DNA of 63,660 nucleotides, the filler included, from Dugesia japonica (taxonomy: Eukaryota), in assembly GCA_001938525.1 (NCBI GenBank). It is 7 parts of 7 records of this genome, joined end to end, with 100 filler letters (N's around TTAATTAATTAA, not from the genome) between each part and the next. Parts side by side here need not be neighbours in the genome. Positions count along the whole stretch, not along the records: positions 35,316 to 45,169 come from MQRL01598687.1; 6 more parts are not named here. One strand, given 5' to 3'. The notes under the pieces are model-generated. The model was not told where the DNA came from and did not search any database. It saw only the letters and a program-made list of their open reading frames with translations. Shown one piece after another: positions 36,726 to 42,266 of the stretch. Within the stretch, counting starts at the first letter, position 1; each line of letters opens with the position of its first letter. Made by a program: the position numbers and the translations under genes.

Positions 36726-37382
36726 TCATAAAGATTGTAGCCGGGGTAGATAATAGAGCTCGTGCACCTGCTCTCTCTCTCTCTCTCTATTGAACAATTG
36801 TGCTCGATAATTTTCCATTGAATTTACGCCTGGTAAGGGCTCTCCGCATTTTTCTCGTAATCGTTGATTTTTGATTTGCAGTTGACGTACTGTATTTTGA
36901 AAATTCTGAAATAATAATTCGTCATCCTCTCGTTTAGCTTTTAACTCTGTTTTATAGCACTCCAACTCATTTTGTGCCTTTGTAAACTCTTTGACCTTTT
37001 CCTCATTTATTTGTTGGCTCTCTAACCTCACAGCGTTACTCCTTTCCAGTGCTTTCTCTAGCACTCGCATTTTCTCTTTGTGCCATTTTAATTCAGTCTG
37101 CAATTCACAAATTTGACCTAGATGTAATCGATCTTGTTCATTACGCTTCCTCTGCATATCCTCCAATTCTTGAGTCTGCTCGAAGCTTCTCTTTCTCCAA
37201 TAAATTAATTTCTCATTTTTATCCTGCCATTTAACTCTTTGCTTTTTCTCTTGTTCTAGCAAATCTTTATTTTCCTTTTCTAACGAGTCTATCCAATGAC
37301 TCATACGGTTTATAATGTCTTCTTTACCTTGCAATATATTTTCTAATCTTTCGATCTCTTTTCTATCAGGTTTGGGTTTCAT
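36726..37382 (-). CDS. Coiled-coil protein of unknown function, probable retroelement accessory ORF
   Basis: Open 218-aa E/K/Q/L-rich frame. Confidence 0.6.
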   Translation of the reverse strand: MKPKPDRKEIERLENILQGKEDIINRMSHWIDSLEKENKDLLEQEKKQRVKWQDKNEKLIYWRKRSFEQTQELEDMQRKRNEQDRLHLGQICELQTELKWHKEKMRVLEKALERSNAVRLESQQINEEKVKEFTKAQNELECYKTELKAKREDDELLFQNFQNTVRQLQIKNQRLREKCGEPLPGVNSMENYRAQLFNREREREQVHELYYLPRLQSL

Positions 37383-37937
37383 GCTTGCATTTTTATGTTT
37401 ATTTCTGTTCTGGGGGTTTTCTGGACATCATTTTCTAAAATTTAATAATTTAAGAATAATTTAATAATAAGGTCTTCATTTATTTATATTAGTAATGTTT
37501 TTGTAATAATTATTTACATTTTACAGGGATTTCAAGATAGATTGATTTAAGTGCAAATTTTCTTTATTTGAAAGTTTTTCTTTGTTTCTTAGTTTAGTAA
37601 TATTGATAATATTTTTCTATTTTATTAACAGTTTACAACCTTCTGATTCCACATACTTTATTTCTGCTTTTATAAGATAAAAGTCTTTGCGTTGCATTTT
37701 TACAGAATTTTGTGAATACTAACTGTTTACACTTGTTGTAAATTTTTGTTATTATATACAATTCAACTGATTAAACATTTCTACCATATCCAAATTATTA
37801 CTAAAATAACTGATCTGATAATTGTTTCATACATTTATTACTTCTAACTACTAATCAATGTCATAGTAAACTAATTTTTCTTACTTTATCCATTTCAAAA
37901 TAATTATTTACAAAAACTCTCATATTACGACTTCATT

Positions 37938-39521
37938 TTAAAAATCATTCCAATCAGACTTTCTTTCTGAGTCGAACACCAATTTAGGTGCATGCAAATG
38001 TCTATCATTTAGATTTAGTAACTCTTTCCGCAATTTTATTCCTTTATATTTTCCTCTTCTGATTTTTAACGCTACTTTTGTAACGAATATTATACAGGCT
38101 GCTGTTATTGCCCTAATTGTTATACCGATAAGTCTTGCTGACCAGTTCCGTTCTTTTCCTATCACGTTTGCAGTAGTTACCACCTGATGTTTCAACTCCC
38201 CGTCCGCTAAAATTTCTGTCTTTGAACTGATCCTTGTTAATTTCTTTAACCATTTATTCATATGTTCCTCTTGTTCCTTGTTTAACACATTCCATTGTTC
38301 CGTATTTGAATCAGTAGTATTGATCTAAATTCCATTTTAATTCTTTTTCCAATTCTGTTTGCTTGTGGTTTCAGAGATGTTTCTGTTAATTCTCTTTTTC
38401 ATAACTGTTTTTAAAACGATGTTCGATTTTCTTGTAATTATTCTCGGTTTATTACTTACTTTATTAGGTTTTCTAGATGATAATTTCTTTTTATTCCGTA
38501 GAAGTACATGCTCGATTTCTAGCCATGGTTCTTTTAATTGAAATAATTTTTTCGTTGTTCCGACAGGTAACTTTAACCGTTTTTTAGCTGACTATTTCTC
38601 TTATACTGCCCAATCTTGGAGATATAAGTATTGTGATACAAACATTTATCGTAACATATCTGTTTCTATTTTGAACTGAAGAACTGGATATCTTAAAATT
38701 CTATCTCGTCTTTTTCTTGGAAAATCTATTTCAATTCGACAGATATCCTTTCCTTCTAATTGAATTATCTTTTGTCTATGCCAATTCTTTAATCCATCAC
38801 TTTCCAATACTAACCCTGTTAATCCAGTAAAATCTATTTTCTAATGTTGTGATATATAAATTACTTCTTGTAATAAGCAATTTCCATTATTGTCTCCCAA
38901 TGTTGGTAGTCTTAATTCCCGAATGACGTATGAAATTTGGATAATTTTGTAATGATAGGTGCTGTAAGCCCTTCTTTCTTTAAATTCCTTTGACTTTGTA
39001 TTGCTTTTCGTTGTCCTAAATTCATTACTCCATACTTCCAATGTCGGTCCGTCATATTGGATTGCATAAAATTGTTGTACTTTATCTGTTACTCCTAACT
39101 TTTCTAATTTCCAATAATTTTTTTCCAGTCTTACTTGTATTGAATGACACTTACTTGATATTGCTGGTGTGATCGTAAATTCAATAGAAAATCTATTATT
39201 ACTAGCACTTCTCGTAACTCTTTCCAACCCTCTTTTCGATACTGTCAATATTCTATTATGCGAGTACCCGATATACATTCTATGTTCCGTAAAAATATCT
39301 TCATAGTCCAGACATTTATCTCCGTTTACAAACTTTAAGGTTACTAAGATTATTATAACATATATCCATTTACTCATCATTTTCAGTGATCGGTTTGCCG
39401 AATTAGTTGTTTTTGTAATTCTCTGTAAATTGTTTTCTTTCCATTCATTCATCGTTGTCATTTTAACTCCCGTATTTGCCAAAAACATTGTGATTAAGAC
39501 CATTAAACATAAGACAAACAT
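37938..39521 (-). pseudogene. Candidate env-like type I membrane protein, disrupted
   Basis: Signal-like MSKWIYVIIILVTLKFVNG; frame continues past the stop at 38841 to RKRR (38706-38717); C-terminal hydrophobic LIGITIRAITAACIIFVTKVAL followed by KIRRGK. Confidence 0.45.
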
Positions 39522-41018
39522 AGTCGTTGCTGTTGTGAAGTATCTAAACCCAGTTGTTCTGTTCCATCTTTGTTTTTGTTTTTTGCCAATTTCTTGAGCA
39601 TAATTTGAGTCAATCTCTTTGCGTTCATTTCCTTGTTTATCTTTTGCTGAAAATTGTAGTAATGCAGAATTTTGTCTTTCTTCTTGTTTCGTTGATCCCC
39701 TTTAAAATCTCAGTTTATCTTCTGATTTTGTCGATTTTTGTTGGGACTTTGTCTTTTGATGTGTCTCTTGCTTTCCAACTCTTCTGCGAGTCCAAGCATT
39801 TCAGATTTTTTCTAAGCTTTTGAGATCTTCCTCTTCAAGGAAAGATTTACAATTTTCAATTTCTTCCATTAGTACTAAAAGTACTTCAGCACATTGTACA
39901 ATTACTTTCTTCATGCTTTTTAGTTTGTCAGAAGAATCTTTTACTGTTGAGTCTATTGTTTCAGGTTGTTGTCGTTTTTTCTCTTCGGCCGATTTCTTGA
40001 TCTTTAATTCCAATTTCTCTCTTGCTTGAGTTGGTTTCCCTTGTCTTTGATTCTCTCTAGATATTGTTGCCATACATCCTCTTTTATTTTTTTCATCTCT
40101 AGTGAATCTGATTCGCTAAAATGTGGAGCACTTCCAGAGTCTTTGCAGTATTCCAAAAACCACTCTTGATTACTACCGTAAAATGCATATCACTGTCTTC
40201 TTCACTTTGTGATATATTATTCCTATATATTTCTTTTCTTTCTTTTTCTTGTAGAATCATACGATTACTTATTTCATCAACTTTCTCTATAGAATTTTGT
40301 AGCGGTCTTTTGTTATTTTTATTTTTTCTTGATTTGTTTAGCGTGCTTTGACTTTTACTCTTCACAGTTTGTTTTTCTCGTTTAAGCGGGCTTTCAAATG
40401 TTCTTTGACATTCTGATCTTTTAATTTATCGAACGTCTGATAATCTTCTTGGTCTAATTTTGCCTCTTGTATTTCTTGTTTATAATCTGGTTAAACCTTT
40501 AATTGTTCCTTTGTTTTCCGTTTAAACTCATGCCATTTTTCTATATTTTCTAACGATTTTAATAATTCTTTTTGATCGCGAATTTCTTGATTTTTGAGAT
40601 AATCTTTCCACATCTGTTTTAGTTGCTGTTTTGTTTCTTCTGTAATTTTAAGATCAATGTTACTTTCTTTAAATTTATCATACAAATGCNATTCATTTTA
40701 CAGTTCTTGTAATGATTTTCCGAGATTTTACTTATTATACATTGGCCATTCTTTAAAGTCGTTTGCTAATTGTAGCGATCTTTCTTGGTTTTGACAGTTT
40801 TGATTTCCCATTTGCTTCCGCTCCATTTTTCTCTTCTCCTTCTAGGTAAATCGACATCCTTGGCGATCCTCCTTTGTTCATTCTTCTTGAATTTCCTTTG
40901 AATTTTCCAAATCTCTGATGATACTTTATCTTCTTCTGCAACTTCTTTATTTTCTATTTCTTGAATTTCTTTGTTAATGTATTTATTTTCTATTTTATAA
41001 ATTTTGTTTTTGATTTCT

Positions 41019-42092
41019 TCACCAGCCTTCAATTTTATTGGTAACAGCTTTATGAAATTCTTCTACTGCTTCAACCAATTTTTCTGTTACTATATCTATA
41101 CAATCCAAACAAAAAGTTTTATATATGCTTTCCCAAATTGGAATCTTCACTACTTTATACTTTTCTTTGCACATTTTGCACACATTATTCGCCCCCATTT
41201 GATTGTGTATTAACCATTGTTTTCGTCGTATCACTTGTTGTAAAGATTCCTTTATTTCATTTTAAACAATACTATAACACATATCACATAATTTGATCAC
41301 ATCTTCCTTTTGGATTGGACATTTACTTGGCCTAAATGCTTAGCAATCTCTGCACTCGCAATTCCTCATTGCTTTACATCTCACTGTTTTGCCAACTCCA
41401 ACTTGTGTTCTGATGGTTGTTGACTAATATTCTGGTTGTACTCTTGTTCTGAATTGAATAAATTTTAAACATAGTTCACAAATCGCTTTCCATTTTCTAC
41501 TGGCGTCGTAATTCTTTTTCCGGTAATTACTACCATTTCCTTGGTTACAATCAAAATACTTCATTTGATATCTATCACATTTCTCGTTGTCACAAATTCT
41601 ATCAGACAGATAAAGTTCTGAAGTTTTCTCTATACCAACTGAGCTCATTTCAGACTCAATTTTTTCAGAAACCGAATGAAAGTATCCGTCAATTCTTCCA
41701 GCAATATTAATTTCGTTCTCATTATCTTCTTTGTTTAATCTAGCCACAAACCCACCTGAATCTGAAACTGTTACAGGTTCTATTTTCATCCGTAATAGTT
41801 TAGCTGCTGTAAGTCTTCATGATAATTCATTATTTATTATTTTACGAGCATTAATCAAACATCGATTACACCAATTCTTACATTGTTCTCTTTTTACTTT
41901 AACAACTATTTCTATTTTTGAACACTGTCCACATGTTAAACCAACAGCTGCGACTATATTTCTTTTAGCCTGTTCTAACTCTCTACTCATTTCTCTTTTC
42001 GTTTCTAGTAACTGATCATACACTGCTCTTAAACAATAATGACATGATTTAATTAATTGACTCTTTATTAAAGGTATTGCTGTTGATTTCAT
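41019..42092 (-). CDS. Three consecutive small Cys-rich ORFs (CxxC pairs), some disrupted
   Basis: CHYC/CGQC/CNRC in 41817-42092; CDNEKC/CELC in 41424-41789; CRDC/CDMC/CKMC/CLDC in 41019-41420. Confidence 0.5.
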
Positions 42093-42266
42093 TTCATTTT
42101 ACATCGGTTCTCACTATCGTTTACGTTAACTTTTGGTCTAGCAGTAATCATATTTATACTTTGTCTTGATCTCAAAGGATATCTGCTTTCGTCATTAGAA
42201 ATTTTCGGTTTTTTAATTTTTCCGTTTCTGTTTCTTTATTTCTGTTGAAAGATCTACTTGATCGAT

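What the first reader, a model, noticed from the sequence alone, without database searches (positions are those of the whole stretch)
36726..42260. Gypsy element with a virus-sized accessory gene cassette after integrase
Seen: at least eight packed, co-oriented frames follow integrase (Cys-rich trio, K/E-rich coiled coils, membrane protein, 218-aa coiled coil) with no recognisable domains. Established: S. mediterranea has giant Gypsy-type Burro elements. Inference: this is such a complex element whose accessory genes are largely uncharacterised.
Basis: partly seen in the sequence, partly recalled or inferred. Interest (0 to 1): 0.7.

Follow-up and report, generated by a model that had tools for sequence, protein, structure and literature searches.

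The report
Accessory genes of giant flatworm retrotransposon
This is a broken old copy of a very abundant jumping gene, likely one of the giant retrotransposons of flatworms, whose integrase is followed by a real block of probably five to seven extra genes with no match in the databases searched, among them a predicted cell-surface protein that would likely help its particles attach to cells.

Summary
The frames are real: 10 minus-strand stretches of 80 codons or more follow a Ty3/gypsy integrase (shuffles: mean 0.5), and they belong to the element: integrase and cassette are equally high-copy in DNA runs (roughly 150 near-identical copies) and one other copy carries both on one contig. But this copy is dead, about 10% diverged, and the count of eight mixes genes with fragments: four stops and one frameshift inside the cassette are private to it. 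The likely content is five to seven genes: two duplicated CxxC zinc-finger modules, K/E-rich helical proteins, a predicted 480-codon type-I membrane protein that is no recognised fusogen, and a 218-aa coiled coil. None has a homologue in any library searched. A depth step, a purine tract plus TG at 40076 and a CA end at 35416 suggest, without proving, that the last genes lie inside a 4.7-kb LTR. A Burro-type element fits (about 70%) but could not be tested: gag, env and RT are cut off and no Burro sequence was at hand. Splicing is untested. The scan noted similar cassettes on other DNA. New variant of a known kind; interest 0.45.

The parts
43532..44565 (+). Unrelated very high-copy repeat with a terminal-inverted-repeat-like start; cuts off the element's 5' part (no gag, env, RT or RNase H seen next to it). 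Right end approximate.
   Evidence: matches 51068-51263 and, inverted, 53082-52967, plus 52092-52566; depth jumps from bin 43393 on
42267..43531 (-). Ty3/gypsy integrase with preceding linker, in three frames (zinc-binding part, core, C-terminal part); broken near 42966 and 42726
   Evidence: Integrase_H2C2 E 0.003, rve E 1.2e-6 (both under the curated cut-off); best PDB match Ty3 Gag-Pol E 2.9e-9; indels in other copies at both places
41817..42092 (-). ORF A, 91 aa, three CxxC pairs (spacing 33 and 17), predicted zinc-binding
   Evidence: deep contigs leave this copy's sequence at 41815, so the A/B junction differs in other copies
40766..41789 (-). Cys-rich unit B-C-D: probably one or two genes, here broken by stops at 41426, 41342, 41264 and a frameshift near 41045; part 41339-41022 is a likely duplicate of ORF A (CxxC spacing 32 and 19), followed by a K/E-rich tail
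   Evidence: private breaks; score 66; 2 of 5000 and 11 of 5000 shuffles; BLASTP found no alignment
40099..40697 (-). K/E-rich helical coding stretch in fragments (two frames)
   Evidence: K+E 33%; stop at 40340 private
40076..40094 (-). Purine tract followed by TGT: candidate polypurine tract and start of the 3' LTR
   Evidence: only such site in 35300-42300; 0.83 expected by chance, so weak alone
39801..40096 (-). ORF G, about 90-100 aa K/E-rich predicted coiled coil, after an acceptor-like site at 40116
37938..39521 (-). Predicted membrane protein gene: hydrophobic stretch after ATG 39521, signal-peptide-like stretch after ATG 39380, about 390-residue ectodomain with 4 Cys, RKRR at 38717-38706 and 3 sequons, C-terminal transmembrane helix near 38140-38060, basic tail; 6 in-frame stops in this copy
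   Evidence: stop at 38339 private; acceptor-like sites at 39544 and 39423
37436..37937 (-). AT-rich non-coding spacer ending in an acceptor-like site at 37435
   Evidence: lower depth in bin 37413-37711
36726..37382 (-). 218-aa coiled-coil frame, unbroken from ATG 37382; AATAAA twice about 110 nt downstream
   Evidence: Atlas returns only generic coiled-coil clusters, recognition below its threshold
35416..40076 (-). Candidate 4.66-kb 3' LTR (TG ... CA), holding ORF G, the membrane gene and the coiled-coil gene; ends against a TAA microsatellite and an assembly gap
   Evidence: inferred, about even odds

Best explanation
This is the decayed 3' end of a high-copy Ty3/gypsy retrotransposon, likely of the giant Burro type of planarians, in which integrase is followed by a block of probably five to seven accessory genes that the intact copies would likely express from spliced RNAs, as complex retroviruses do. 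Shown: the integrase, the coding signal, the linkage, the high copy number and the decay of this copy. Inferred: two duplicated zinc-finger proteins and several coiled-coil proteins act as regulators or adaptors in the host cell; the type-I membrane protein is a second surface protein (attachment or host modulation) rather than the fusogen, which in Burro-type elements lies inside the gag-pol frame; and the last three genes sit in the U3 part of a 4.7-kb LTR. My odds for the steps: cassette belongs to the element 0.92; Burro-type 0.7; several genes rather than one polyprotein 0.8; spliced expression 0.55; genes inside the LTR 0.5.
For: Integrase closest to Ty3 in PDB. Coding signal far above shuffles. 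One strand bias from 35001 to 44000. All 30 bins covered in 2 of 2 DNA runs, junction bins as deep as their neighbours; a contig of another copy holds integrase core and Cys-rich part in the same orientation in both runs. Single contigs of depth 1166-1310 against 8.5 for the window-identical contig in X2: of the order of 150 near-identical copies; the eLife table lists S. mediterranea gag-env-pol elements of 14.5-18 kb with 215 and 45 near-identical copies. Private stops and an even 13/14/13 spread of 40 differences over codon positions. Duplicated CxxC module. Hydropathy and positive-inside pattern of a type-I protein. Burro exceeds 30 kb with an internal part up to 25 kb and harbours accessory ORFs (PMC6431247). 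Depth at listed places in X2: median 2228 (22 places below 40076) against 1328 (18 above).
Against: No gag, env or RT of this element in the window and no Burro sequence compared; 5 published primers match nowhere (5 or more mismatches; uninformative). The review's text names only an upstream accessory ORF and an env before protease; its figure could not be seen. Depth step is only 1.12-fold (X1) and 1.28-fold (X2) on bin means, 1.33 and 1.53 on bin medians, short of the 2-fold an LTR should give; the purine tract is expected 0.83 times by chance. Acceptor-like sites precede only 4 of 10 main-frame first ATGs (background 0.167, p 0.07). No splice joint among the listed rows in RNA runs X9, X12, X8, at depths of 1-5 or less. 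No homologue or confident fold supports any protein function. The tool warns that contig depth is no copy number.
Confidence: 0.6

Rival explanations
1. A non-Burro gag-pol-env element whose envelope is this membrane protein, a fusogen of a new family, with smaller accessory genes on either side.
For: Env position after pol; signal peptide, RKRR, sequons, C-terminal anchor and about 480 codons. Bdelloid LTR elements carry varied ORF3s, some small and transmembrane (PMC5408684, abstract only).
Against: Only 4 Cys in the ectodomain; no hydrophobic stretch after RKRR; no match to any env or fusion family in Pfam, PDB or 1.84 billion proteins; the eLife survey found only gB-type env in gag-env-pol order in flatworms, though it could find only known env types.
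Confidence: 0.2
2. The region is one long third frame (about 1,400 codons: zinc fingers, coiled coils, membrane domain) cut by proteases, plus the separate 218-aa gene; all internal stops are decay.
For: 8 of 10 long stretches share a frame; all 4 stops that fell among the listed places are private.
Against: The shared frame is partly luck, since frameshifts lie near 41045 and 40300; the A/B junction differs in other copies; ATGs with acceptor-like sites start B, G and the membrane gene; two signal-like stretches in a row fit separate starts better than one chain.
Confidence: 0.1
3. A chance neighbour: a different high-copy repeat or viral insert lies next to an integrase remnant, the depth step marking the seam.
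For: No contig spans the whole stretch; depth is higher below about 40000; the window is full of nested insertions.
Against: Same strand, same bias, no depth break at the integrase junction, and a second copy joins integrase to the Cys-rich part. This direct link reaches only to 41160; the part below rests on continuity of depth and frame.
Confidence: 0.08

Closest known systems
Burro / GYPSM1 giant Ty3/gypsy elements of Schmidtea mediterranea and Dugesia (PMC6431247, section 7 read whole; original paper of Grohme 2018 not held)
   Same: Ty3/gypsy integrase, high copy number, room for multi-kb LTRs, accessory ORFs, AT-rich animal genome.
   Different: The described extras (MATH, BIR, BCL2, ankyrin, env, dUTPase) lie in or before the 4,873-aa frame; the text describes no zinc-finger pair, membrane protein or LTR-held gene after integrase. 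Identity untested.
Platyhelminthes GAG-ENV-POL gB-type errantiviruses, Smed_errantivirus_1-6 (PMC13524379, passages and supplement rows)
   Same: 14.5-18 kb elements with up to 215 near-identical copies; no LTR recorded for any of the 6, no chromodomain for the one listed; this integrase also ends without a recognised chromodomain.
   Different: Their env is upstream of pol; the survey did not annotate what follows pol. The protein here is not gB-like.
Complex retroviruses and foamy-like fish endogenous retroviruses (latter named in PMC6431247; nef, sag, tas/bet recalled)
   Same: Several accessory genes at the 3' end, some overlapping the LTR, reached by splicing (inferred here).
   Different: Ty3/gypsy, not Retroviridae; no sequence likeness; splicing not shown.
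Ogre/Retand and bdelloid LTR elements with extra ORFs (PMC6431247 passages; PMC5408684 abstract)
   Same: Extra frames of unknown function beyond gag-pol.
   Different: One or two extra frames there; five to seven here.

Membership tests
Ty3/gypsy LTR retrotransposon | DDE integrase of Ty3/gypsy type at the end of pol | tested here: met
   rve E 1.2e-6, H2C2 E 0.003, best PDB match Ty3 E 2.9e-9 (foamy virus 8.7e-8)
Ty3/gypsy LTR retrotransposon | RT and RNase H before integrase | not testable with these tools
   5' part cut off at 43532; no genome held
Ty3/gypsy LTR retrotransposon | Paired LTRs, polypurine tract, target-site duplication | tested here: inconclusive
   One candidate LTR 40076-35416; no second copy in the window
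Burro / GYPSM1 | Single gag-env-pol frame of about 4,900 aa with MATH, BIR, BCL2, ankyrin | not testable with these tools
   Region absent from the window
Burro / GYPSM1 | Sequence identity with a described Burro | not testable with these tools
   No Burro sequence in any library; 3 BURRO1 primers match nowhere, their place in the element unknown
Burro / GYPSM1 | Over 30 kb with multi-kb LTRs | tested here: inconclusive
   Candidate LTR 4.66 kb; depth step 1.1-1.7-fold by measure
Burro / GYPSM1 | Many near-identical recent copies | tested here: met
   Contigs of depth 1166-1466 against 6-10 for single-copy-like contigs in three studies; rough
Burro / GYPSM1 | Planarian host | tested here: inconclusive
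   AT-rich animal-like DNA with a single-exon GPCR; scan notes on this genome say planarian (unchecked)
Errantivirus with F- or gB-type env after pol | Post-pol frame homologous to a known fusogen | tested here: not met
   No Pfam, PDB or phmmer match; 4 Cys in ectodomain; single decayed sequence limits sensitivity
Complex-retrovirus-like expression | Splice acceptor before each accessory gene, spliced RNAs | tested here: inconclusive
   4 of 10, p 0.07; RNA too thin for joints

The most novel reading that the evidence does not exclude
A giant flatworm Ty3/gypsy element is organised like a complex virus: besides a gB-type fusogen in its polyprotein it carries a second surface glycoprotein of no known family, a duplicated zinc-finger pair and coiled-coil genes, the last three inside a 4.7-kb LTR, so that every LTR copy spreads them; entry would use a two-part machinery of attachment protein plus fusogen.
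Probability: 0.25. Interest if true: 0.7.

Novelty: new variant of a known kind. Interest (0 to 1): 0.45.

Why it matters
Burro-type elements are among the largest retrotransposons known and are derepressed tissue by tissue when PIWI is lost in planarians (PMC8532177, passages). What they encode after integrase is not described in the papers I could search (figures unseen; Grohme 2018 and Repbase not held). A set of orphan accessory genes, with a second surface protein and genes in the LTR, would show a retrotransposon reaching the organisation of complex retroviruses independently, and gives concrete genes to test. This particular copy is dead and adds no function by itself.

Tried and rejected
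Chance frames: rejected. Homologue searches all blank: word-based search with the membrane frame, integrase C-terminus and integrase core, longer proteins only (that even integrase found nothing shows the collection or method misses this group, so blanks are weak); phmmer of a 1,200-residue read-through of 42098-38499 against 1.84 billion proteins, 0 hits (the 218-aa frame was not in this query); PDB (25, 101); phages; metagenome contigs; viral contigs (58, 62, 63 none; 59 one 16-residue match, L001, taken as chance; 57 reported 7 related stretches but returned no locus, left unexplained); PHROGs; Atlas (18 none; 90 generic coiled coils). Single-sequence folds had mean pLDDT 36 and 38; fold searches on the first gave nothing at E 0.001; a fibronectin-type fold is neither shown nor excluded. 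No RNA holder listed. RNA lays: X9 463 reads of 13.6 million, 3 at 99% or more, 353 only partly laid, both directions; X12 283, 276 only partly; X8 2 on 601 bases: too thin for expression or splicing. GLT and GLT2: one primer each, no match. For the place-wise depth ratio (1.63) I had kept only 13 and 9 places that looked covered by one main contig; one search repeats it with all 40 places (1.68) and with bins (1.12-1.53). The A/C pair was picked by eye and 55 pairs were scored, so its support is moderate. The plus-strand Gypsy remnant at 33500-35215 faces the other way across a gap and is not taken as this element's 5' part.
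Full report
Observation. On the minus strand, 36726-42260 holds 10 stop-free stretches of at least 80 codons (1,344 codons in all); 500 dinucleotide shuffles give a mean of 0.5 and at most 3. They follow an integrase: zinc-binding part (Pfam E 0.003), core (rve E 1.2e-6; both under the curated cut-offs), best solved relative Ty3 Gag-Pol (E 2.9e-9), ending at 42267. The strand bias is the same from 35001 to 44000. None of the downstream frames reaches a Pfam cut-off.

This copy is broken. The integrase itself lies in three frames. Eight of the 10 stretches share one frame and are split by isolated stops. Laying public DNA runs shows 919 differing places over 8,951 bases, about 10%. 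Four stops (41426, 41342, 40340, 38339) fall on places where 99-100% of the contig depth differs from the window; for the first two this holds in three runs from three studies. About 96-99% of depth differs by an indel near 41045, where the frame shifts, and other copies also differ by indels at the integrase breaks near 42966 and 42726. The 40 listed differences in 41240-41840 fall 13, 14 and 13 on the three codon positions, as neutral decay gives. Only 40 of 919 and 40 of 75 places were printed, so most stops are untested, and how many separate genes the intact family has stays open; five to seven is my estimate from starts, spacers and hydropathy.

Linkage and abundance. All 30 bins from 35320 to 44270 are covered in both DNA runs; the two bins across the integrase junction are as deep as their neighbours (X2: 2152 and 1926). 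One contig of another copy (699 nt in X1, 915 nt in X2; 15 and 21 differences from the window) carries 42831-42933 and 41160-41317 in the same orientation, 100 letters apart: one independent copy with an internal deletion, seen twice. No contig spans the whole. Single contigs reach depth 1166-1310 in X2 and 1466 in X5, while the window-identical contig has 8.5 in X2 and 6.1 in X1: of the order of 150 near-identical copies, with the tool's warning that depth is no copy number. So the cassette belongs to a young, large family, of which this is an old relative.

Anatomy. ORF A (91 aa) and the stretch 41339-41022 share three CxxC pairs at spacings 33/17 and 32/19. Their local score of 66 is reached by 0 of 5000 plain shuffles, 2 of 5000 that keep CxxC words and 11 of 5000 that keep every Cys in place; BLASTP finds no alignment and the pair was picked by eye, so duplication is likely, not certain. 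K/E-rich helical stretches follow (K+E 32-36%). From ATG 39380 to 37938 one frame of 480 codons, with 6 stops here, has a signal-like start, 4 Cys, RKRR, 3 sequons, a C-terminal hydrophobic helix and a basic tail; a second hydrophobic stretch starts at ATG 39521. That is a predicted type-I membrane protein, but with few cysteines and no hydrophobic peptide after RKRR it does not look like an F- or gB-type fusogen (family traits recalled, in part from PMC13524379 passages). After a 500-nt AT-rich spacer comes the 218-aa coiled coil, then AATAAA twice. No search found a homologue or a confident fold; since integrase also found nothing in the word-based search, these blanks are weak.

Ends. The 5' part is cut off at 43532 by an unrelated repeat that recurs at 51068 and, inverted, at 53082. 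At the 3' side family-level depth runs to about 35420, where the sequence ends in CA (35416) against a microsatellite and a gap. The only purine tract followed by TGT lies at 40076 (0.83 expected by chance). Depth is higher below that point: median 2228 at 22 listed places against 1328 at 18 in X2, but only 1.12- and 1.28-fold on bin means. A 4.66-kb LTR holding the last three genes is thus possible at about even odds; shared 3' halves of subfamilies or internally deleted copies would give the same step. I noted this idea before seeing two scan notes on genes in 4.4-kb LTR-like repeats of this genome, which are unchecked AI notes.

Mechanism. A single genomic RNA cannot be translated into genes behind pol without help. 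A scan note on another genome proposed one leader spliced to an acceptor before each gene. Here acceptor-like sites precede 4 of 10 main-frame first ATGs against a background of 0.167 (p 0.07), and two more lie before ATG 39380 and ATG 37431; decay would blur such a signal. RNA runs were too thin to show joints. Splicing is the likeliest route but is not shown. Roles are inferred from anatomy alone: zinc-finger and coiled-coil adaptors, and a surface protein for attachment or host modulation.

Comparison. Burro elements exceed 30 kb, have an internal part up to 25 kb, one 4,873-aa frame with env before protease, and accessory ORFs (PMC6431247, section 7 read whole; figure 2A not visible and may show frames after integrase). 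An eLife survey lists six S. mediterranea gag-env-pol elements of 14.5-18 kb with 45, 215, 3, 8, 1 and 1 near-identical copies and no LTR recorded (PMC13524379, passages and supplement rows). The abundance here fits the largest of them, but this is circumstantial: other families may be as abundant. Grohme 2018 was not held and Repbase is not available; either may already annotate these frames. PMC8532177 (passages, supplement rows), PMC11410931 and PMC13238120 (passages) and PMC5408684 (abstract) added context only. It works like a complex retroelement of the Burro kind; membership is untested. The scan has noted comparable cassettes on other DNA, though no look-alike of this stretch.

Verdict. 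Real feature, over-split by decay; new variant of a known kind; interest 0.45.

Noticed in passing
window 43532-44565, 51068-53082: Very high-copy repeat with AG-starting inverted ends; 51068-53082 looks like a complete 2-kb non-autonomous element, ends resembling those of Polintons (recalled).
   Followed up: partly
window 27004-27492, 31263-32774, 55434-63213: Two decayed Polinton/Maverick-like remnants (integrase, capsid-like, ATPase-like, polymerase B-like), recognised by eye; 76-81% alike in part; Pfam gave no hit for the capsid-like and ATPase-like pieces.
   Followed up: partly
window 33500-35215, plus strand: Second Gypsy remnant (gag-like, RT start; weak PDB match to Ty3 RT, E 0.026) ending at an assembly gap, facing the element studied.
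   Followed up: partly
window 7719-8822, plus strand: Single-frame rhodopsin-family GPCR, 367 codons (7tm_1 E 1.3e-13), the one clear host gene seen.
   Followed up: partly
window 41706-41738: In RNA run X9 about 45 reads match only this short stretch and run on unlike on both sides: another transcript, a distant relative or chance.
   Followed up: no
window 38844-39521: The viral-contig scan reported 7 related stretches but returned no locus; unexplained.
   Followed up: partly
window 36400-36570: Several imperfect repeats of about 35-40 nt around a CTGC core on the minus strand, in a poorly covered part of the candidate LTR; seen by eye, below the tandem-repeat threshold.
   Followed up: no
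window 1205-1814, 12264-12851, 17091-17393, 45366-45698: Transposase-like and GIY-YIG/Penelope-like fragments, by eye.
   Followed up: no
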